Shown here one piece after another: positions 9,646 to 63,731 of a DNA stretch of 63,936 nt. The translations under genes were made by a program, and so were the position numbers. The stretch lies in NCBI RefSeq assembly GCF_000372725.1, contig NW_005201298.1, positions 187,457 to 251,392 of the forward strand, given 5' to 3'. Under the pieces are notes generated by a model. That model was not told the DNA's origin, did no database searches, and saw nothing but the letters and a program-made list of their open reading frames with translations. The number at the start of each line of letters is the position of its first letter. Position 1 is the stretch's first letter. Source of the DNA: Emiliania huxleyi CCMP1516 (taxonomy: Eukaryota).

Positions 9646-12600
9646 TCACTCAGATGTGGAAGCGGAGGCGGCGGCCGGCTCGCCCGCCTCGGGTAGCGCG
9701 TCGAGCACGGCGCGGAGCTCGTTGTACGCCTATCATCACTTAGCTCACCAGCTCACCAGCCCACCACCAACTAGCGAGCCGGCAGCGCGGGAGCTCCACG
9801 GCAAGCCTTCTCCATCGGGGGCCTCGCAGACGCGCTCGCCTGAGGGGCGGTGAGGCGGCGCGTGGATCGATGCCGCCGTCTCCCTCCCCGCCCGCGACAA
9901 GAGCGCTCGAGTCGTGCGCCAGACGCTCTCGTGACGCTCTCGTGACGCTCTCATGGGTGGGCGGGCTGCTCTAGCCCTCGCCTCGGACAGCCAGCGCGCA
10001 GTCTGCTTGAGCAGGAGCGGCCTCACCCGCCGAAAGTGCGCCGCGACCGCCGCCTGGTGAATGAATGGACTGATTAACGAGTTGACTGACTCATTGACCC
10101 GCCGAAAGTGCGCCGCGGCCGCCGCCTCGAAGCCGGCGGGCGGGCACTTGATCATGTCCCGCATCGCGTAGCGCATCGTCTGCAGGCGCAGGTCCTCGTT
10201 GTACTCGCGCGAGCGCTGCTCGCCCGCGGGGGTGTTCTCCTATGGGGGAGATAGGGGGGAGATATGGGGGCGATCTCGGTATGGGGGAGGTCTGCTCGCC
10301 CGCGGGAAGTTCTTCTCCTCCTCGGCGTAGCCCGGCTCGTTGAAGTACGGCTTCGGCACCTATCTCCCCCAGATCTCCCCGTGTCTCCCCAGCTCCCCCC
10401 AGCTCCCCCCACCGAGGCGCGCGGCGTCGGCACCATGATGATCGACTGGATCGAGACGAGCACCTGTGCTCACGGCTAGAGGTGTGAAGAGGCGCTGTTC
10501 ACACCTCCACCACGATGATCGACTGGATCGGGGCGAGCACTTGCAGCAGCGTCGAGCCGGAGCTGCTCGCCGAGGGCGGAGTCCACCCCTCGCCGTGCCA
10601 CGTGCCGAGCAGCGAGAGGCACACCTTGCCGTCCGAGTAGTGGTTCGGGTTCATTAGTCAATTCGTTAATTAGCTAATTAGCTCATGAACACCTTGCCGT
10701 CCGAGTAGAGGTTCGGGTTGAAGCGCACCATGCCGCCGCCCGTCGTCTGCAGGTTGACCAGCGGAGGCACGGAGGGGTACTCTGCCGGGATGAAGACCTA
10801 TTCGCCCATGTCGGTGGGGGCGTGAGGACCACGCCACTCCGGACGGGCGGGGCGGCTTCCGCGGGGGGGGGGGGGGGGGGAAGGGGGGGGTGGAAGGAAA
10901 CCTGGAACTCCAAAAGGCCCAACGCGTAGGGGGTCTCGTGCGTCGTGTCGAGCACCTCCCCAGGGCCCGAAAAGAGCACCTGGAGAGCGCACGCCCCTCC
11001 CTTGACTCCCTTGAAGGAATGAACTCGTTCACCTGAGTCGAACGGAGGGAATCAACTCGTTGAATCGAGCACCCCCCTTTTTAAGGGGGGGGATTCCCCC
11101 CCCATTTCCTCATGGAAATTATTGAAACGCGTTGAGGACGTCCATCCTCAAACCCCTTAATGAGTTAATTCATCAATGGACTTCATTGAAGCGCCTTCAG
11201 CACGTCCATCCTCAACCCAGCTCCATGCATTAACACTCCATTACTTACTTAATGCAACTTCATTGAAGCGCCTTCAGCACGTCCATCCGGCTCTCATCCT
11301 TGAGCACGACGATGCACGACTCGGCGCCTACTCTCGCCGCGTCTCGGCTCATCTCGGCCCGTCTCCCCCTCGACCTCTCCAGGCAAGCCGTGTCCGCGCC
11401 GCACGGCAAGTTGCCCTCGCCCGACAGCGACTTGCACTCCTGCAGCAGCCGCTTCACCTTGCTGCGCGCCGCGGCCTCAAAGGGCGACTGCGCGATGTTC
11501 TGGCGGTAGTAGTGGTTGTACCGCCCCGCGCCGTCCGCCATGCCAACTTCGTCGAACGAGAGCTCGGCCAGCTCCGCGCCGTACGCCTCGTTGACCGTTC
11601 GCAGCATCGCGGCGGCGCCGCCGTACTCCTCCTCGGCCGCCGCGGCGTCGGCGGCGGCGCGCTCGCTCACCAAAGAGGAAAGGCCGCCGCCCGGCCCGCC
11701 CTCGCCCCCGCCCCCGCCTCCCTGCTGCAGGCGGGGGAGGAGGCGGCGGAGGGCCTGCACCTCCAGCGGCGGGAAGTGGTCCTTGCACTTGTGCTCGAGG
11801 ATGTCGGCCGCCTGGAGAACCAGTTGACTGATCAACGAGTGGGCTACTCAACGATTGAACGCGTGCTCGAGGATGTTGGTCGCCGTGTGCAGGAGGGGCA
11901 CGTCGAGGTTGTCGCAAGCGGCGAGCGTCTGCACGAAGGCGGGCACGCGCGAGGCGGCGTGGAGCAGAAGCTGCGCCGTGTCGGAGAGCATCTTCTTCGG
12001 GTGCCTATGCAAAAAAGAAATGCCGCTAGCGAAAAAGAAATACGCCCGGGTGTCGGAGAGCATCTTCTTCGGGTGCCTATGCAAAAAAGAAATGCCGCTA
12101 GCGAAAAAGAAATACGGCCGGGTGTCGGAGAGCATCTTCTTCGGGTGCCTATGCAAAAAAGAAATGCCGCTCCCGAAAAAGAAATACGTGCGGGTGTCGG
12201 AGAGCATCTTCTTCGGGTGCCTATGCAAAAAAGAAATGCCGCTCCGGAAAAAGAAATACGTGCGGGTGTCGGAGAGCATCTTCTTCGGGTGCCTATGCAA
12301 AAAAGAAATGCCCCTCCGGAAAAAGAAATACGTGCGGGTGTCGGAGAGCCTCTTCTTCGGGTGCCTATGCAAAAAAGAAATGCCGCTCCGGAAAAAGAAA
12401 TACGGGCGGGTGTCGGAGAGCCTCTTCTTCGGGTGCCTATGCAAAAAAGAAATGCCGGTCGCGAAAAAGAAATGCGTGCGGGTGTCGGAGAGCATCTTCT
12501 TCGGGTGCCTATGCAAAAAAGAAATGCCGCTCCGGAAAAAGAAATACGAGCGCGTGTCGGAGAGCATCTTCTTCGGGTGCCTATGCAAAAAAGAAATGCC

Positions 12601-15600
12601 GCTCCCGAAAAAGAAATACGTGCGGGTGTCGGAGAGCATCTTCTTCGGGTGCCTATGCAAAAAAGAAATGCCGCTCCGGAAAAAGAAATACGGGCGGGTG
12701 TCGGAACGCATCTTCTTCGGGTGCCTATGCAAAAAAGAAATGCCGCTCCCGAAAAAGAAATACGGGCGGGTGTCGGAGAGCCTCTTCTTCGGGTGCCTAT
12801 GCAAAAAAGAAATGCCGCTCCGGAAAAAGAAATACGGCCGCGTGTCGGAGCGCATCTTCTTCGGGTGCCAGCCCAGCTTGTCGGGCTGGTCGACGCGCAA
12901 GCCCTCCCGCGCCTTGACGTCGCAGAGCTTGCGCAGGAACTCGACCAGCATCGCCGCGAGCTTGGAGGCGCGGGACGGGTGGGAGGCAAAGGCGGAGCAG
13001 ACGCCCGCCTCGTCGGTGAGGAAGAGGAGGGCCGCCAGCGACGAGTGGGCGAGCTGGAGGAAGCCCTTGGCGGTGCGGCGGCACTGCTCGAGGCGAGCCT
13101 CGCGCGCCTGCCTCTCCTTCCCGCTCAGCGCCGCCCACGCCGCCTCCTTCTCCTTGTCGGCGGCAGAGGCCGGCGGCGGGGCCGGCAGCGACGCCGCCTT
13201 GTCCCCGCGACGCACCGAGGCTGGCATCTCCTCCTGCCTCGTGTGCACGTCCGCCAGCCGGCCGAGCGCATCCGCCAGCAGAAAGACCGCCTCCTTGACC
13301 AGCGTCTCTGCAAACTCTCCAAACGCCGCGCCGCCGTCGCCGCCACCGCCCGGCTCGAGCGAGGCGGCCGCGGCGGCCTGCAGCGCCCTCCACGGCTGCG
13401 GCTGCTGCCACAGCGCGCGCAGCACGCTCATGATGCGGAAGCGGTCGCCGTTCTTGTCGGAGACGGCCGCCGCGTTTGTGTGCAGCCCGAGCTCGACGTA
13501 GAGGGAGAGCAGGGGCAGCTGCACCTCCGACGCCGCCTCGGCGTCGATCAGCCTGACAAGCGGCCCCGCCACGCCGCGCAGCCGCGAGCCGGCCAGCCGC
13601 GCCGCGTGCTCGTCCATCTGCACGAGCGTCTCGAGCAGCTCGGCGGCGGTGAAGCGGACGAAGGGCGAGGAGGCGAGGGCCTGGAGTTGCGGAGAGCTCG
13701 CCGCGTCAAGACGGGACAGCCAAGGGCGGGCGGTGTGGGCGCGTCCGATTTCTTGTTTCCTGCCGGCCGACCCAGCGGCACGCGCAGCGCGAGACGAGGG
13801 GCGCCGCAACCTCCGAAGCAACGAGAGCCTGGGGGTCCTTGCGCGCGAACAGCACGAGGAGCGCAAACACGTCGGTCAGCGTCGAGGCGGGCAGGGCGGC
13901 GCACGCGTCGGCCGCCGCCGCGCTGTCGGCGCAGAGATGCTCGAGCCACGCGCCTTTTCACAGCAGTGGGTGTGAAGAGACGCTGCTCACACCTCTCGCC
14001 AGAGATGCTCGAGCCCCGCGCCTTTTCACAGCAGTGGGTGTGAAGAGACGCTGCTCACACCTCTCGCCAGAGATGCTCGAGCCCCGCGCCGGCGAGGCCG
14101 CAGAAGCGGAGGAGGAGGGGCTGCAGCCGCGGGCCGTCGAGCAGCAGCCGGTACGCCAGCACCGCCGCCTGCGCCTTGCCCTGCCCAGCCTCCTTGATCG
14201 CGTGCAAGTGTGCGTCGAAGGCCGCCGCACCGCCCTCGGGAGGGGGGGCGCGCACCTTGCGAGATATGGCGGAGATGTGGGGGAGATATGGGAGATAGCC
14301 CTCGGGCGGAGGAGCGCGCACCTTGCGAGATATGGCGGAGATGTGGGGGGAGATATGGGAGATAGCCCTGGGGAGGAGGAGCGCGCACCTTGCGAGATAT
14401 GGCGGAGATGTGGGGGGAGATATGGGAGATAGCCCTGGGGAGGAGGAGCGCGCACCTTGCGAGATATGGCGGAGATGTGGGGGAGATATGGGAGATAGCC
14501 CTCGGGCGGAGGAGCGCGCACCTTGCGAGATATGGCGGAGATGTGGGGGGAGATATGGGAGATAGCCCTGGGGAGGAGGAGCGCGCACCTTGCGAGATAT
14601 GGCGGAGATGTGGGGGGAGATATGGGAGATAGCCCTGGGGCGGAGGAGCGCGCACCTTGCGCTGCAGCTCGAGGAGGATCCGCTCGCAGCGGCGCATGGC
14701 GGGGAGGCGGCCTATGAGAAAAGAAGAGCCGCTGGAGGAAAAGAAATACGGCCGGCTCCTCGCATGGCGGGGAGGACGCCTATGAGAAAAGAAGTACCGC
14801 TGGAAGAAAAGAAATACGGCCGGCTCCTCGCATGGCGGGGAGGACGCCTATGAGAAAAGAAGTACCGCTGCAAGAAAAGAAATACGGCCGGCTCCTCGCA
14901 TGGCGGGGAGGACGCCTATGAGAAAAGAAGTGCAGCTGGAAGAAAAGAAATACGGCCGGCTCCTCGCATGGCGGGGAGGACGCCGACGTGCAGCGCGCGC
15001 AGGCAGAGGAAGAAGCACTCCGTTACAAAGTGCAGCTCCGCCTAATAAACGAATGAACGAATTCACGACTCAGCTAATTCACTCCGTCACAAAGTGCAGC
15101 TCCGCCTCGGCGTCGCCGCCGCCCGCCGCGACCCCCTCCGCCGACCCACCAGCAGCGCCAGCCGGCGGTGGGGTGTTCGGGGGGGGAGCGGGCTCGGCGG
15201 CGGCGTCGCTGCTCGAGAGGAGGGAGAGCTTGATCGCCTGCGCGGAATGAAGGACTTGAATTGACGCATCCACTAGTTGATGCGTCAGAGGGAGAGCTTG
15301 ATCGGCCTGCGCCAGCTCGTCCGCCTCCTCGTTGGACTCCTCGAACCCTCCCGACCCACCCGCACCCGCTCCGCCGCCGCCAGAAGGGTCGCCGCCAGCT
15401 TCGGTGAGCCTGAGGCGCTCCTCGGCTTGCGGCCGGCGGCGGCGCGCCGACCACGCCGCCTCGCGCCGCCGCTCTCGCTCGTGCCACCTCGAGATATGGG
15501 GAGATATGGGGAGATATGGGGAGATATGGGGAGATATGGGGAGATATGGGCCGCTCTCGGTCGTGCCATCTCCAATCGAGCTCTTCATACTTGGTTCATT

Positions 15601-16631
15601 CGTTCGTCCGTTCACTCGTTCATTAAGACGCGCCACCTCCAATCGAGCCGCGCGAAGCCGTCATGCCCCTTGCCGTCGCGGAGAGCCGTCGGGGTGAGGA
15701 AGGGGCCGCACAGCTGCAGCAGCACCGCCGCCGCGCTAAGCAGCGCCCCGTCCGACGAGCAGCTCTGCCGCGCCTAATCAACTCATCAGCGGATATGAAC
15801 GAGTTGACCCATTCACCCGCCCGACGCGCCGCTCTGCCGCGCCCGCATCGCCTCTTGAGGGCTCTGCTGCTTCCCCCCGTCTGCGTTCGCGCCGTTGGCC
15901 GCGAGCACAGCGCCCAGCCAGCGCAGCGCGGCCGCCTTGGCTGCCGGGTCCTTGAAGAGCGCCGCCGTGAGGATGACCCGCTGCCTGCATGGACATGTCT
16001 AACAGACCAGTCACGGACCCTTGTGTAGAGGGGAGTAGGCGCCACGAGGTGGTCTGCTGCCGGCTCTGCAGCTGCCACACCTCCTCCCACCCGCCCTCGA
16101 GCACGGCGCGGTCCTAATTAAACGAATTCACTGATTCGCTGAGCACTGATCAACTAATTCACCCCGCCCGCCCTCGGGCACGGCGCGCTCCTCGTGATGC
16201 CACCCTCCCCCGCCAGGGGCAGGCGCCGCCATCCCGTACCTTGACCAAGGAATCCGTCCACCGTTAGTACGCTGAGTGGCGAATTCGTTTCTCCGGCGCT
16301 GCCATCCCGCGCACCTTACTCAATCAGTTCAGAACCAGTCAGCCATCACCAGCCTGACCCCGGGGCCGGGCAGGCGCCAACCCCGCGCACCCCGTCAGCC
16401 CAGCCGGCGAGGGGCTGAGCAGGCGCAGCACTCCGAGCCCCTCTGCCTCCCGGCCAGTCCACTCGCCAGAGCGGAGCCTGCCGCTCTCCTAGAGGCCAGG
16501 TCAGGCTCCCGTCTCCACACACACACACGAGGTGGTGGGGCAAGGGCCAGGCTGCTCCCTCGCGACTCCACGTCTGACGACAGGAGCCGGCACGGCATTC
16601 GAAGTGCAAGGCCCGGTGCGCGTGGGTGAGC

Positions 16632-16715
<84 letters not shown>

Positions 16716-17961
16716 AGTGCGTGTGTGTGTGTGTGAATTGTGTGTGCCGCGTGCTGTGTGTGTGTGTGTGCTGTGTGAGTCTGTCCGCTCTCCTCGTCAA
16801 GCCGCCGCACGAGCACCGCGCGGGCGGCAACGCCGTGCGGAAGCGGCTTGAGCGGCCCGCCACCCGCCGCCGCGCCGAGGCCGAGAAGCAGCTCCGCCTC
16901 TGCCAGCACCGCCCGCCACCCGCCGCCGCCGCCGCCCGAGGAGGAGGAGGAGGAAGGGGAGAAAGAGACGTCGACCACAGCGCCGCCCGAGTACGGGTCG
17001 AGCCGGCGCAGCAACGACTCGAGTGCCGGGCCGTATACGCTCTCCTGCTCCGCCAGCGAGAGCGACGTGGCGACGGCGGTCACAAACGGCGCCGCCGCCG
17101 CCGAAGCCTTGAGCAAGCCGACGAGGTCGCTCTCTCCAGAGTCGCCGTAGAGGGAGAGCCCGTCCTCCTCAGCGGCCCCCGAGAGGAGGGCCTGCCTCGC
17201 GTGGTGCAGCGCGACCTCGCACCCGAACGCCGCCGCCGCCGCCGCGCTCGCCTGCTGCAGCTGCGGCTGCTGACGCTCCCAGCAGTGTATTATATTATAT
17301 TATATTATATTATATTATATTATATTATATTCGCCTGCTGCAGCTGCGGCTGCTGACGCTCCCAGCAGTGCTGCAGGTAGCGCAGGCCGCGCTCGTCCCC
17401 GTGCGCGTACGACTGGGTTCGGTCCCGCACCTGAGGCAGGGGGAGATGGGGGGAGATAGGACGGAGATACGGCACCTGAGGGGCGAAGGAAGGCCGCGGA
17501 CGTGTGCGTCGCGGACGTGCCACCCGGCCGGGCCGCACCCTCCTCCCGCTCACTGCCCCCCCCCCCCCACTACCCCTCGCGCTCACCGCCCGGTGCAGCG
17601 CGTCGGCGCCGTCTGCCGGCGCGGCCGACAGAGCAAAGCCGGCCTGGAGGGCGGCGAGCCCCGCGGCGTCGAGGCCGAGCCGCGGCGCGGGACGCGCCTC
17701 GAGTTTCGGGCGCTTGGCGGTCGGCCGCGCCATCGTCGGAGGGGGCGCCATCGCCATCGCCATGTCTTCGTCCTCGTCCATGTCGGTCGACGCGCCGTCC
17801 GTCTCGCCGTCCGTCCCGCCGCCCTCCTCCATCATGTAAAAGTACTCGGAGGCGGCCGCCTCAATGTTGCCACCCGCATTCTGGAGCAGCGTCCCGGCCT
17901 GGCCGGCGTCAATCCCGAGCATGCCCACGAGCGTAGCCACAGAGGCCGCATACTCGTCCAT
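9646..17961 (-). CDS. Multi-exon ubiquitin-system protein: N-terminal UBA-like domain, Ufd2/UBE4 core-like region, C-terminal BIRC6-type UBC (E2) domain
   Basis: UBA-like: [33 protein letters not shown]. Ufd2-core-like: [30 protein letters not shown] and [35 protein letters not shown]6-like E2 with catalytic Cys: [69 protein letters not shown]. Confidence 0.8.
11978..12869 (-). repeat. 72-bp tandem array (12 units plus a partial), intronic
   Basis: Units start at 11978 + 72n up to 12842. On the minus strand each unit reads GCACCCGAAGAAG...TTTTTTGCATAG. Confidence 0.95.
14256..14655 (-). repeat. 66-67-bp tandem array (6 units), intronic
   Basis: Minus-strand unit GTGCGCGCTCCTCC...ATATCTCGCAAG. 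Confidence 0.9.
14712..14985 (-). repeat. About 68-bp tandem array (4 units), intronic
   Basis: Minus-strand unit GCGTCCTCCCCGCCATGCG...TTTTCTCATAG. Confidence 0.9.
16633..16775. repeat. (GT)n microsatellite
   Basis: Directly visible. Confidence 0.95.
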
Positions 17962-19612: not shown

Positions 19613-20542
19613 ATGGCGCGGAACTTGTGGCTGCCAATAACAGGCGGGTCGGTGGAGGAGATCATCTCGGCGCACGCTGACCCGCTCGCTCTCCTGGAGA
19701 GTGGTGCGGTGCCTGCTCTCGTCGTGCGCCGTGCGCTAGCAGCACCTGCGCTGACGACAGTCTTGTCGCGGCTGCAAGGGCAGCCGTGGCAGAGGAGGAC
19801 AGCCTCCTATAAGACGTTGGGCGTCGATTTGGGTGCCTATTTGGGCCGCTACCCGCACCCTCTAGATTTGCTGCGGGCCGAAGTCCACTCCACTTGCACC
19901 AAAACGACCGACCTTCAGAGGCATCACGCCAACGCCACTGCCGCCTTTGATCTCGCGGCGAAGAGAGCAGGCCTGTACGCCCCGGTGGAGGCGCTGCACC
20001 GCACTCTGCGTGCGCTCTTTGCCGCGAGGTCTGCGGCTGCTGAGGCCGACTTCCTCCCGGCTCCGGGCGTCTTTCGCATGCACCGCCCGGGCAACCGCTT
20101 CGCGCCGCACGCAGACACCATCCACGCTGCAGAGTGGAGCAGTGCGTGCGGAGGAAAGCGGCCGAGGCGAGGCGTGGCGCCAAACTTCCGCCCTCTCCGC
20201 CGCCTTCGGCACCAGCTCTCTGCCCTCGTGTCGCTGCAGCAGCCCAGATCCGGGGGAGAGCTGCGGCTCTTTAGCACCAACTGGGAGGCCCTCATGTCAA
20301 CTTGCAACCAGCGCGGCGTGGCCTACGACGTGGGAATCGCCTTCCCTCACTGGCCGCGCGCGGCAGCCATGCTGCACCCGCGCGAGTACAACCTCACCGT
20401 CACGCCGGGCGACGTCTTCATCTTCAACAGCAATCGCGTGCACGAGGTGCTGCCGGTGGTGGGTCAGCAGCCGCGCCTCGTGCTCGGGTCCTTTGTGGGG
20501 TACTCGCACTCGCCGCGTGAGGAGATGAGGATGTGGTCTTGA
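19613..20542 (+). CDS. 2-oxoglutarate/Fe(II)-dependent oxygenase superfamily protein
   Basis: HxD (PHAD), GGELRL, PGDVFIFNSNRVHEV (distal His) and a downstream Arg (PRLV). Intronless, 309 aa. Confidence 0.75.
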   Translation: MARNLWLPITGGSVEEIISAHADPLALLESGAVPALVVRRALAAPALTTVLSRLQGQPWQRRTASYKTLGVDLGAYLGRYPHPLDLLRAEVHSTCTKTTDLQRHHANATAAFDLAAKRAGLYAPVEALHRTLRALFAARSAAAEADFLPAPGVFRMHRPGNRFAPHADTIHAAEWSSACGGKRPRRGVAPNFRPLRRLRHQLSALVSLQQPRSGGELRLFSTNWEALMSTCNQRGVAYDVGIAFPHWPRAAAMLHPREYNLTVTPGDVFIFNSNRVHEVLPVVGQQPRLVLGSFVGYSHSPREEMRMWS

Positions 20543-22629
20543 GGACCTCGTGCTCGGGTCCTTTGTGGGGTACTCGCACTCGCCGCGTGAGGAGATGAGG
20601 ATGTGTCTTGAGGACCGAGAGGGAGGAGCCATCGAGAGAGGTCGGTGACGATGCTGCCGGTGTCGGCATTCCCAGCGGATGGAGACCGTGGCTGTTGCGC
20701 TGGTCAAAGCGAAGGCCGCCTCCTCGAGGACTGTTGGGGACGCCGATCATCTCTCCAGCTCCGAACTCGAGAATTGTGCGCATGTCGGATGGAGCCCTTG
20801 CCGCCGCTTTCTCCACCCTTCCCTGCCTGCCCCTTTCCATATCTCGACGACCTCCACCTCCCCAACGCCGGTGGGCAGGCATCAACATCAAGTTCGGCAG
20901 CTCGACCTTGAAGCTTGATCGCTTCTGATGCTGATGGCAACGGCAAGCCTCTCCTCTCTGAGGAGCTAAAGAAGCACCTGAAGGACGAGCTCACCAGATT
21001 GATAGACAGACCAATGGTAGCCGAGCCGTGTACCGCTGGGCTCGTCGAGCGCCTACTGAGGGTCGCGCGTTTGCGCCCCGCGGACCGGCGCCGGCGGCCG
21101 CCGCGTGCCCGCGGTGCCCCGTGATCGGTGTGTGGCAGCGGCGCGGCGCTGCGTGTGTGACCATCGTCAGCGGCGCCGCCAGCCGTCATGTGCACTACCG
21201 GCACGATGTGCCTTGTGCGATGCGGCGCATGATTGCTCTGTAGGCATCCTCGCGCTTTCGCTTCCGGCGCATCGCCTTCGTCTCCTTGCTGCGCAGCTGG
21301 GTGTAGTTCGGGCCCGCCTCCGCCACGCTGTCCAGCAGCTGGGCGGCGCTCGCCATCTCGACCGCGTCGTCCTCCGGCGGAAGCTCCGCGTTGCCCGCGG
21401 CCGCCTCCCGAGCGCGCTCGTCGCGCATCCGCTCGTGGTGGGCCTGCCGACGCGCCACGCCGGCGCCCGCGTGCCTCGCCGCCGCGTCCGGCGACGGCAT
21501 CGATGCTGTCCGCCCGAGCGTGACTCGCCACTCCACGACCTCCACGACCCTCCACGACCCTCCACGACCCACTCGCTCTGCCCCAAACCTAAATCGTCTC
21601 ACTAGTTACATACATACTTTAGCGACACACAGCCATGTGGGACGCGCGTCGTCCGTCGAGTACCTCTAGCCTAAAGTAGCCTATATAGAGCCTAGACGCT
21701 AGAGCCGTACTACCCAGCCTTCGCATGCGATCGTGCATGCACATGCACATGTCCATGTATGTGCATGCACATGTGCATGCAGAGTGCTGCAGTCTTTTTT
21801 TACGCGTGTGGCGCGTGAGCAGAGACCAGAGTGGTGTTGTGTGAGACGCGTGTGTGAGAGGCGGGCGGTTGACGTTGAGTGCTGCGCGTGCGTGTTCTGC
21901 GTCTACAGAAACACCAATGCATATTCTCCGCTCCGACCACACACCCTCGCCGACGACTACAACCTCGCAAAAGAGTCACATAGCGGTGTGACATCTGGCT
22001 GAAGCCACGCCACGGCTTTGGCGTTTGGGAACCACTCCTTCTCTCCCGTGTACGCAAACTGGATTAGAACGTGGCCCGTTTGCTGCTCCGCCACCGCGCC
22101 AGCGTAGCAGAAGGATGGGTCGCCACCCGCTTCGACGCTCACCCACTCTGTCTCCGGCACGGAGACCAGCCGCCCGACCAAGCTAGCATGCTGCATCGGC
22201 GCAGTGCGGCGCGACGCGCTCGCAACAACGAACGTCTGGCCCGGCTGTACGCCAACTGGGACCACCGTGGTGAACATCTGCTCGCCCGATGTGGACGGGA
22301 AGGTCGCGGACTGGCCGGGACTCATGCCCGCAGGTGGAGTGCGTGGTGTTAGGGTAGCGAGGTTGGTTGGGCGCGGCGAGAGTCAAAGCGAGGCAAAAAG
22401 AATTTTCTTTCGAAATTTCAGATGGCAAGAGATTTTTTCTTTTTTTGTTTCTCTCTACGACGGGCACGGGACCGGCCCTGCCGCACCGCGCCAGGATGGG
22501 TCGCCTGACAAGGCACTGTGGCACGCCGGTCAGTGCTGGTTCGTTGGAGCAGCTGCGCTGCCTCGCGAGCTTCCAGATATTCTATCGATATGAAGGGCGC
22601 ACAAAGGCGCTCGACGTCGCTCCATCCGA

Positions 22630-28567: not shown

Positions 28568-30586
28568 ATGGTCCCCAAGGTAGCAGCGCGCGAGGAACCG
28601 CTTCTCCCCGCCTCGGAGGGCTACGTGGAGTACCCAGCGGCGCGGCGGCAGGCGCTGCCGCGCTGGATCACCGTCGCCGGCGCCGGCATGGGCGTCGCCA
28701 CGCTCCTCCTCCTCATCTCGGCAGCGTCCCAGCACAGCGCTCCGACGTCTTCTTCGTCGGTCATGCCGTCGGCGGCCGCGGCCGGCGCGGCGTCGGGGGC
28801 GGTGCTCTCGGGCGTCCTGGACCTGCCGGCGCAGCAGCAGCCGCAGACGCACCTCCTCGCGGCGCAGTCGGCGCGGGAGGAGCCGGCGGCTGCGCGGAAG
28901 AAGGGCGTGCACGCGGTCCGGTTGAGCAAGGTTGAGCGGACGGCGCGGCAGCACGCGCTGGAGCTGAACGACGAGACCTCGCAGGGGCTGTTTGCCCTCG
29001 GCGGAGCCACCACCAACCTCATCGCGGCGGATGGCGACGCGGGGACGGCGACAGTTGAGCTGAAGGACTTCCAAGATGCGCAGTACTACGGCGAGATTTC
29101 GATTGGCACTCCGCCCCAGACCTTCTCCGTCGTCTTCGACACCGGGTCGGCAAACCTCTGGGTGCCCTCGTCGCGCTGCAAGGGCTTCAACCTCGCGTGC
29201 TTCCTCCACCGCCGCTACGCAAGCGACAAGTCGGACACCTTTGTGCGCGATGGCACGCCCTTCGCAATCAAGTACGGGTCCGGCTCGATGTCCGGCTTCA
29301 TCTCGCACGACAAGATCAGCGTCGGGTCGCTCACTCTCAAGAACGCCTCCTTCGCCGAGGCCGTCACCGAGCCCGGCGCCGCGTTTGTTCTCTCAAAGTT
29401 CGACGGCATCCTCGGCCTCGCATACCCGTCGCTCTCGGTCCACTGCCTCACGCCCGCCATACAGCACTGTGAGGAGACGCTGTTCACACCCGCAGCTGTG
29501 AGCAGGTCAACGGCCTTACGCCCGCCATACAGCACTGTGAGGAGACGCTGTTCACACCCGCAGCTGTGAGCAGGTCAACGGCCTCACGCCGGTGATGCAG
29601 GAGCTGATCAAGCAAGGCCAGCCCATACCTCCCCATATCTCCCCATATCTCCCCATATCTCCCCATATCTCCCCATATCTCCCCATATCTCCCCATATCT
29701 CCCCAGATCTCAAGCAAGGCCAGCCCGCGACGAGCTAACTACTACTCAACAGCTAATCGTTACTAATGAACGAAGTCATCACCAGGCCAGCTCGCGGCGC
29801 CGCTCTTCTCCTTTTGGATGAGCAAGGACCCGAAGCAGACGCCGGGCGGCATGCTCTTCCTGGGCGGCGTCGACGACTCCTACTACACCGGCGACCTGCA
29901 CTGCCTCCCCATACCTCCCCATGTCCCCCATATCTCCCCCATATCTCCCCATATCTCCCGCACAGGCGACCTCCACTACCTCCCGATATCTCCCCATATC
30001 TCCCCATATCTCCCCATATCTCCCCGTATCTCCCGCACAGGCGACCTCCACTACCTCCCCATCACACGCAAGGGCTACTGGCAGTTCGACCTCGACGCAG
30101 TGTCGGTCGGCGGAAGCGACGTCCTCACAAAGGGCTCCGCCATCGCCGACACGGGCACCTCGCTCGTCGTCGGCCACGATGGGTGTGAACAGCGTCTCTT
30201 CACACCTCTGGCTGTGAACAGGCACCTCGCTCATCGTCGGCCCCACCGAGCAGCTGAAGAAGGTGATTGGCAAGCTGGGCCTCGCGGACGCGCAGGCGGG
30301 GATGGGCGGGCAGTACTCGATTCCGTGCGACAAGAAGGGGGAGCTGCCCACGCTCTCGTTCACCTTGGGCGGCAAGACCTTTAGCCTCGAGTCGGCCGAG
30401 TACGTGCTGGAGATGGAGCTGCTCGGCAAGAAGATGTGCACCCTCGGGCTGATGCCGATGGACGTACCAAAGCCGGCTGGCCCGCTCTGGATCCTCGGCG
30501 ACGTCTTCCTCTCAAAGTACTTCTCGGTCTACGACTTTGGCAACGACCGCGTCGGCTTCGCCGAGGCGGTGGCGACGGCGCCGTAA
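28568..30586 (+). CDS. Pepsin-family (A1, cathepsin D-like) aspartic protease with an N-terminal signal-anchor, multi-exon
   Basis: [41 protein letters not shown], second catalytic IADTGTS (split by intron 30155-30221) and WILGDVFL. Confidence 0.95.
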
Positions 30587-32699: not shown

Positions 32700-33750
32700 G
32701 TGACGGCGGCGAGGGCGACACGGACGGAGCAGGCGACAAAGGCGAATCCGACGGCGGAGGCGGCGACGGCGACACGGACGGAGGCGGCGAAAGCGAGACC
32801 GATGGCGGCGACGGCGACGGCAAGCGAGCTTGCTGCGGGGAGGGCGAGACGGAGGAAGGCAGCGGCGACGGCGACACGGACGGAGGCGGCGACGGCGACA
32901 CGGACGGAGGCGGCGACGGCGACACGGACGGAGGCGGCGAAAGCGAGACCGATGGCTGCGACGGCGACGGCAAGCGAGCTTGCTGCGGGGAGGGCGAGAC
33001 GGAGGAAGGCAGCGGCGACGGCGACACGGACGGAGGCGGCGACGGCGACACGGACGGAGGCGGCGACGGCGACACGGACGGAGGCGGCGAAAGCGAGACC
33101 GATGGCGGCGACGGCGACGGCAAGCGAGCTTGCTGCGGGGAGGGCGAGACGGAGGAAGGCAGCGGCGACGGCGACACGGACGGAGGCGGCGAAGGCGACA
33201 CGGACGGAGGCGGCGAAGTCGACACGACCGACGGCGGCGGGGAGAGCGATTCCAACGGCGGCGGCGGCGACGGCGACGAGGACAGAGGCGGCGAAAGCGA
33301 GACCGACGGCGGCGACGGCGACGGCGACATGGATTGAGGCGGCAAAGGTGAGATCGGCGGCGGGGATGGCGAGACGGAGGAAGGCAGCGGCGACGGCGAC
33401 ACGGACGGAGGCGGCGACGGCGACACGGACGGAGGCGGCGAAGGCGACACGGACGGATCCGAGGCGGCGACGGCGACACGGACGGCGGAGCGGCGACAGC
33501 GACACGGAAGAAGGCGACGGCGAGACCGACGGCACGGCGGGGAGGGTGAGGGCGGCAGCGGGGAGGAGTGCGGCGGCAACGGCAGCGGCGAGGGCGGCGG
33601 CGACGGCGGAGGAGAGAGCGGCGGAGAGGGCGGTGGAGAAGGCCGCGGGGAGGGTGGCGGAGAGGGCGGTGGAGGCGAGGGCGGCGGCGACGGCGGAGGA
33701 GAGCGCGGAGGCGACAGTGGCGGAGAGGGCGGCGAGGAGGGTGGCGAACT
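32700..33750 (-). repeat. Ser/Pro-rich (SPPP / SPSPPPSV) coding-type repeat, including three 150-bp units from about 32761
   Basis: The minus strand translates as extensin-like SPSPPPSV repeats. The parent gene could not be defined. Confidence 0.6.

Positions 33751-45507: not shown

Positions 45508-50199
<4,692 letters not shown>

Positions 50200-60882: not shown

Positions 60883-63731
<2,849 letters not shown>

What the first reader, a model, noticed from the sequence alone, without database searches (positions are those of the whole stretch)
11978..12869. Twelve complete 72-nt GC...AG intron units stacked head-to-tail with no exon between them
On the transcribed (minus) strand every unit starts GCACCCGAAGAAG (copy of the next exon, HPKKMLSDT), has two U-rich tracts and ends CATAG. 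This gives 12 consecutive AG|GC junctions. The unit is a multiple of 3 and stop-free, so using an internal AG would insert n x 24 aa in frame. Inference: the array is removed by recursive (ratchet) splicing or in one jump to the last AG, or it yields length-variable proteins.
Basis: partly seen in the sequence, partly recalled or inferred. Interest (0 to 1): 0.8.

Follow-up and report, generated by a model that had tools for sequence, protein, structure and literature searches.

The report
Twelve stacked introns in algal gene
In a gene of the bloom-forming alga Emiliania huxleyi, one intron consists of twelve head-to-tail copies of a small intron-like unit and is missing from the assembled transcripts; it likely arose from a short insertion that duplicated its target site and then multiplied, and it may be cut out piece by piece.

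Summary
Observation confirmed: 12 units of 72 nt (12868-12005, minus strand), each a 28-nt copy of the next exon's start plus a 44-nt U-rich insert ending CATAG, in an E. huxleyi Ufd2-core/UBC gene. Spliced transcript contigs of 3 of 4 runs join the upstream exon to the downstream exon: the whole array is an intron. Length-variable proteins are not supported: homologs hold one copy, 3 of 4 wild alleles carry frame-breaking units, and the gene's three other arrays have 67-68-nt units, so frame preservation is chance. Copy number varies (1, 2, 2 against 12, short-read caveat). The array is the extreme case of a local rule: 11 of 18 modelled introns of this gene sit in a 13-33-nt exon duplication, inserts fall into families, and wild alleles carry extra, different inserts at the next junction. 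Likely origin: insertion with a long target duplication, then tandem expansion. Stepwise (ratchet or any-order) versus one-jump removal was not testable; I put stepwise at about 55%. Nine paper searches found no description. New variant of known intron-gain routes; interest 0.62.

The parts
12005..12868 (-). Focal intron: 12 tandem 72-nt units (28-nt exon copy + 44-nt U-rich insert ending CATAG); only GT/GC/GA-AG cut that removes all of it is G|GC at 12868 to AG at 12005
12841..12869 (-). First copy of the 29-nt duplicated exon segment; intronic from 12868, reads M-R instead of M-L
11884..12004 (-). Downstream exon ([14 protein letters not shown]...), starts with the retained copy of the duplicated segment
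12869..13680 (-). Upstream exon, Ufd2P_core (PF10408, E 1.2e-22)
13681..13759 (-). 79-nt GA-AG intron, joined across by contigs of 4 of 4 runs
14712..14983 (-). Second array, 4 units of 68 nt, insert related to the focal insert, not frame-preserving
14256..14655 (-). Third array, about 6 units of 66-67 nt (CCCATATCTC-type insert); different units in allele L001
13954..14089 (-). Fourth array, 2 units of 68 nt; 1 unit in allele L001
11812..11883 (-). Single-unit intron; wild alleles carry extra units or inserts of other types directly behind it
62247..62312 (-). Single 66-nt unit in another place whose hairpin insert shares the U-rich CATAG module
9646..17961 (-). Host gene: Ufd2-core plus C-terminal UBC domain (N-terminal UBA-like label is recalled, untested); hand model

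Best explanation
The 864-nt block is an intron made of twelve copies of one 72-nt unit and is absent from spliced transcript contigs; it likely began as a 44-nt insertion that duplicated 29 bases of exon, likely multiplied by slippage or unequal exchange between the direct repeats, and is more likely than not cut out in steps. Shown: the anatomy, complete removal in the assembled transcripts, single-copy homologs, variable copy number and frame among alleles. Inferred: the insert brings the pyrimidine tracts and the A of the acceptor AG, and the GC donor comes from the start of the duplicated exon, so the coding sequence is restored exactly. Each internal TAG|GC junction is both acceptor and donor, so cutting from any donor to any later acceptor leaves a shorter array that is still a substrate; every order ends in the same mRNA, which makes copy number nearly free to drift. 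Stepwise removal about 55%, one jump about 45%; untested.
For:: contigs of X6, X2 and X12 (three studies) run through the upstream exon to 12841 and continue as the downstream exon (30 loose letters compared by eye: exact in X2 and X12, 3 differences in X6). Homologs P0004, P0005, P0007, P0009 and P0011 have one copy with ML/LL, as in the last copy, not the MR of unit 1. Wild alleles: L001 has 2 units; read from ORF translations, P0008 has 1 unit of 71 nt, P0013 has 68 + 72 nt, P0012 has a first unit of 73 nt with a stop. 11 of 18 modelled introns of the gene have a junction repeat of 12 nt or more, against 0.6% of 5000 random exon pairs, and in 10 of the 11 the cut is at the 5' end of the repeat. 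Window-wide, 10 of 26 single-unit repeats have a GT/GC...AG pair in their first 4 nt against 7.4% by chance, P 9e-6. For steps: single units of 64-83 nt are the gene's usual intron size, internal donors have AG before GC where the first has TG, and none of 12 variable columns falls in the 26 splice-signal columns (nominal P 0.0025).
Against: No intermediate was seen: contigs drop rare forms, and RNA was laid on the upstream flank only. X1, the only run on record as RNA, ends 8 letters past 12841 and lists no loose end; X6, X2 and X12 count as RNA here because they skip the 79-nt intron. All four runs differ from the window at some sites, so their copy number is unknown; only X12 shows a unit-to-unit contig (depth 7.7 against 81). 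Short-read assemblies can collapse arrays, so 1-2 units may be undercounts. The variable columns fall in three clusters, so P 0.0025 is overstated. No allele without the focal intron was found (6 of 6 have it). Only 2 of the 18 modelled introns are RNA-checked. No donor element for the inserts was identified.
Confidence: 0.66

Rival explanations
1. Same origin, but the array is removed in one jump from the first GC to the last AG (exon definition across the 121-nt downstream exon); internal junctions are silent passengers of a minisatellite.
For: Fits equally well. The gene has a 292-nt and a 400-nt intron in my model, so longer introns are probably handled. Each focal unit folds into a hairpin that hides its pyrimidine tract (z -3.25).
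Against: Needs 11 identical acceptors to be skipped; the hairpin has no compensatory change (0 of 19 pairs) and would act on the last unit too.
Confidence: 0.4
2. The units arose by plain duplication across the 3' end of an older intron and the exon start (potato RdRp type), without any foreign insert.
For: Units 2-12 are such copies; precedent in PMC4974935 (Results section).
Against: Unit 1 joins the upstream exon directly with an exon copy, with no trace of an older intron 5' part; the insert recurs at unrelated exons (14958-14712, 62247-62290); alleles differ by inserts of other types at one junction.
Confidence: 0.12
3. Internal AGs (or 33-nt mini-exons between GT donors, as the public model P0003 draws them) are used to make length-variable proteins.
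For: Units are 3n and stop-free in the window; P0003 and P0002 include extra 11-aa copies; X12 has a low-depth unit-to-unit contig.
Against: Main contigs hold one copy; homologs hold one copy; 3 of 4 wild alleles break the frame; the other three arrays are not 3n; these public models are described as often wrong at intron boundaries (PMC10290126 and PMC4028052 passages).
Confidence: 0.05
4. The 12 copies are an assembly artefact of a shorter array.
For: Other alleles show 1-2 units.
Against: 11 of 12 units are distinct; no gap nearby; neighbours tend to be more alike (Spearman 0.24, P 0.051); a unit-to-unit contig exists in X12 and two units in L001.
Confidence: 0.07

Closest known systems
Recursive splicing at zero-length exons (ratchet points; review PMC5126111, passages read)
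   Same: An acceptor directly followed by a donor that is regenerated after splicing; nothing retained in mature mRNA.
   Different: Known sites are (Y)nCAG|GT points in introns of tens to hundreds of kb; here TAG|GC every 72 nt in an 864-nt intron, made by tandem copying, copy number variable, intermediates not shown.
Introners, intron-generating transposons (PMC9860276, PMC12130899, passages read)
   Same: Insert carries one splice site and takes the other from its target duplication; families of related inserts; insertion differences between alleles.
   Different: Target duplications quoted are 3-9 bp, here about 16-33 nt; inserts are 35-60 nt and often simple-sequence; no autonomous element known; units expand in tandem. 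Neither main text mentions Emiliania (0 hits); their datasets were not seen.
[quoted passage not shown]
   Same: Duplicated exon sequence supplies a splice site; later units copy an intron end plus an exon start.
   Different: The acceptor comes from a foreign insert, not from a duplicated AGGT; no parental intron precedes unit 1; no new exon is added.
[quoted passage not shown]
   Same: New introns flanked by direct repeats, read as filled-in staggered breaks.
   Different: Repeats here are longer and inserts recur as families.

Membership tests
Recursive splicing site | Acceptor directly followed by a donor | tested here: met
   11 internal TAG|GCACCC junctions; GC rather than GT
Recursive splicing site | Nothing retained in mature mRNA | tested here: met
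   3 of 4 runs join the two exons
Recursive splicing site | Intermediates or lariats at the internal sites | not testable with these tools
   Only contigs were offered
Recursive splicing site | Lies in a very long intron | tested here: not met
   864 nt
Recursive splicing site | Sites conserved above background | tested here: inconclusive
   0 of 12 variable columns in signal columns, but columns are clustered and copy number varies
Introner | Related intron sequence at unrelated loci | tested here: inconclusive
   Related insert at 2 other places in 64 kb; no genome held for a full count
Introner | Short (3-9 bp) target-site duplication | tested here: not met
   29 nt here
Introner | Terminal inverted repeats or other transposon hallmarks | tested here: inconclusive
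   Focal insert has two direct modules; the related insert at 62247-62312 is a hairpin (z -4.37)
Introner | Presence/absence among alleles | tested here: inconclusive
   Focal intron present in 6 of 6 alleles; extra inserts differ between alleles at the next junction
Introner | Autonomous partner element | not testable with these tools
   No genome held
Tandem-duplication intron (Rogers) | Duplicated exon segment across the junction | tested here: met
   29 nt, 1 mismatch
Tandem-duplication intron (Rogers) | Both splice sites from a duplicated AGGT-like motif, no foreign insert | tested here: not met
   Upstream junction is TG|GC; AG needs the insert's last A
Coding tandem repeat or tandem exon array | Units kept in mRNA and frame conserved | tested here: not met

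The most novel reading that the evidence does not exclude
E. huxleyi runs an undescribed, still active intron factory: short insert families land in exons with 20-33-nt target duplications, bring their own acceptor, borrow a GC donor, pile up at the same junctions as mixed or tandem stacks, and are removed by ratchet splicing at about 70-nt steps, far denser than described recursive splicing. It would explain this alga's GC donors, repeat-rich introns and bad gene models, and give polymorphic intron gains to study in populations.
Probability: 0.33. Interest if true: 0.86.

Novelty: new variant of a known kind. Interest (0 to 1): 0.62.

Why it matters
How new spliceosomal introns arise is a long-standing question with few cases caught in the act. 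This gene shows young introns with their target duplication intact, alleles that differ in inserts and copy number, and RNA showing exact removal, in a cultured, globally abundant alga. The array is also a natural test of splice-site choice: twelve equal acceptors and donors in 864 nt. Practically, the public gene models keep false 11-aa repeats here, and the same error is likely elsewhere in this genome.

Tried and rejected
Frame preservation as a sign of function: rejected (9 of 22 units 3n; wild alleles break frame). Fold-back origin of inserts from their own target: rejected as a rule (own insert pairs no better than foreign ones, permutation P 0.56, n 19; only the focal unit ranks first). 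Selected hairpin in the unit: no compensatory change, 0 of 19 pairs. 33-nt mini-exons with 39-nt GT introns (public model P0003): contradicted. Insert motif in viral contigs: 0 matches. No whole genome held, so no genome-wide count. The metagenome scan gave 1 locus. The filter dropped all multi-unit arrays, so its 10 of 26 covers single-unit repeats only. The 22 units were hand-picked from the 55 repeats for having a usable cut. One search listed too many splice options to be useful. The 2013 genome paper was not held. Five look-ups of earlier scan findings gave nothing on this genome.

Full report
Observation. The array is as described. On the minus strand 12 units of exactly 72 nt run from 12868 to 12005, followed by a thirteenth copy of the unit's start that is the real exon (TRF score 1560). 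Each unit is 28 nt of exon copy plus a 44-nt insert with two T tracts ending CATAG. Units differ by 0-8 nt; 11 of 12 are distinct; the window's gaps are over 7 kb away.

Host gene. The upstream exon matches Pfam Ufd2P_core (E 1.2e-22) and is 100% identical to two Emiliania huxleyi gene models, P0002 and P0003. Downstream exons translate to a UBC domain like that of homolog P0007, which carries PF00179. In this species GC donors are about 56-65% and GA about 4% in hand-checked sets (PMC4028052, passages).

RNA. I laid 4 of the 17 listed runs, from four studies, on the upstream exon plus unit 1. All are contigs. In X6, X2 and X12 a long contig covers the exon down to 12841, the end of the duplicated segment, and its loose end is the downstream exon (compared by eye: exact in X2 and X12, 3 differences in X6). 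X1's contig ends 8 letters past 12841 and lists no loose end. All 4 runs have a contig joined across the next intron upstream (79 nt, GA-AG by my reading), so these contigs are spliced RNA, though only X1 is on record as RNA. The mature form thus holds one exon copy and no unit. The only GT/GC/GA-AG cut that gives it is G|GC at 12868 to AG at 12005. Each of the four contigs has one more difference than the table lists, which fits the M-L of the last copy rather than the M-R of unit 1 (inference). X12 also has a 102-nt contig across a unit-to-unit junction at depth 7.7 against 81, so array RNA (or DNA) is present there; it cannot tell pre-mRNA from part-spliced RNA. The downstream flank and the inside of the array were not examined with reads, and the runs' strains differ from the window at a few sites.

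No coding role. Five homologs (P0004, P0005, P0007, P0009, P0011) have one copy of the motif, with ML or LL. The public models P0002 and P0003 insert one and four extra 11-aa copies; the contigs contradict them, and these models are described as often wrong at intron boundaries (PMC10290126, passages). A metagenome contig of another allele, L001, has 2 units. Three metagenome ORFs, read from their translations only, give 1 unit of 71 nt (P0008), 68 + 72 nt (P0013) and a first unit of 73 nt with a stop (P0012). So 3 of 4 wild alleles break the frame. Short-read assemblies may undercount units. The gene's other arrays have 68, 67 and 68-nt units, and 9 of 22 hand-picked units in the window are 3n. 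The 3n, stop-free state is chance.

The wider pattern. In my hand model of part of the gene, 11 of 18 introns lie in a direct repeat of 13-33 nt across the junction, against 0.6% of 5000 random exon position pairs; in 10 of the 11 the intron starts with a copy of the next exon (the 18 are the introns I could place, and only 2 are RNA-checked). Across the window, 10 of 26 single-unit repeats have a GT/GC...AG pair in the first 4 nt of the repeat, against 7.4% by chance (P 9e-6; multi-unit arrays were dropped by the filter). Inserts recur as types: the focal U-rich module also fills the 68-nt array at 14983-14712 and, as a hairpin, a unit at 62312-62247; a GTGTGA...CACAC type occurs at 14089, 10540, 30155 and 29437; others are built of TAAT-, TATTA- or CCCATATCTC-like repeats. 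Alleles differ: L001 has 1 unit where the window has 2 (14089), an extra unit with a (TAAT)n insert behind the intron ending at 11812, and the start of a further insert about 30 nt on; P0013's translation reads through that further insert without the (TAAT)n one; the window has neither.

Mechanism. Inferred origin: a short sequence is inserted at a staggered break or by a target-duplicating element; if the target starts G|GC and the insert ends in pyrimidines plus A, the product is a GC-AG intron that restores the exon exactly. The flanking direct repeats then allow tandem expansion. Shared variants (the AGG variant in units 2, 7, 8, L001 unit 1 and P0008; L001 unit 1 equals unit 7) show descent by copying. 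Inferred splicing: every internal junction is acceptor and donor, so any cut leaves a shorter array and all routes end in the same mRNA. For steps: one unit is the gene's ordinary intron size, an allele with one unit exists, internal donors have AG before GC, and signal columns are invariant (0 of 12 variable columns in 26; nominal P 0.0025, overstated because columns cluster). For one jump: exon definition could pick the last AG, and no intermediate was seen. I put these at 55 to 45. The unit's hairpin (z -3.25) shows no covariation and is not shared by other units.

Comparison. It works like an introner that carries its acceptor and borrows its donor (PMC9860276, PMC12130899, passages), but the duplication is 29 nt, not 3-9. 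It resembles tandem-duplication gain (PMC3443670 passages; PMC4974935 abstract and Results), but the acceptor comes from a foreign insert. Its junctions have the form of recursive sites (PMC5126111 passages), but in a short intron and without shown intermediates. It is not filed as a member of any of these.

Novelty. Nine full-text searches (listings seen, seven papers opened in part) showed no description of exon-duplicating or stacked introns in haptophytes. The 2013 genome paper was not held; from memory it reports abundant 10-11-bp repeats in introns, and its supplement, the introner datasets and the supplement of PMC4028052 were not seen and may bear on this. Verdict: real, intronic, non-coding; a new variant of known intron-gain routes; interest 0.62, more for the pattern than for this one array.

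Noticed in passing
window 13681-13759 (-): GA-AG intron with CAG|G on both sides, joined across by contigs of 4 of 4 runs; both public gene models place it differently.
   Followed up: partly
L001 38-108 (-), matching window 11811-11780: Extra unit with a (TAAT)n insert and the start of a further insert, both absent from the window: insertion differences between alleles at one junction.
   Followed up: partly
window 14712-14983 (-): In the 68-nt array the last exon copy reads R-L-P-A-M where the other copies and model P0002 read V-L-P-A-M; homolog P0006 has a hydrophobic residue there.
   Followed up: no
window 15488-15648 and 10980-11288 (-): Apparent mixed stacks: two or more duplication-plus-insert units with different inserts at one junction.
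   Followed up: no
window 46610-47066, 48140-48627, 49403-49595, 29437-29590, 20476-20616: Further tandem arrays of 60-88-nt units, some of the same exon-copy-plus-insert look, outside this gene.
   Followed up: no
window 9646-17961 (-): Domain order Ufd2-core followed by a UBC domain instead of the U-box usual for Ufd2 (recalled); homolog P0007 has the same pair.
   Followed up: partly
window 17248-17370 (-): 40-nt perfect exon duplication around a pure (TATTA)n insert, with the AG|GC near the 3' end of the repeat.
   Followed up: no
window 32700-33750: Long degenerate repeat region (periods 24, 51, 126, 150), probably coding.
   Followed up: no
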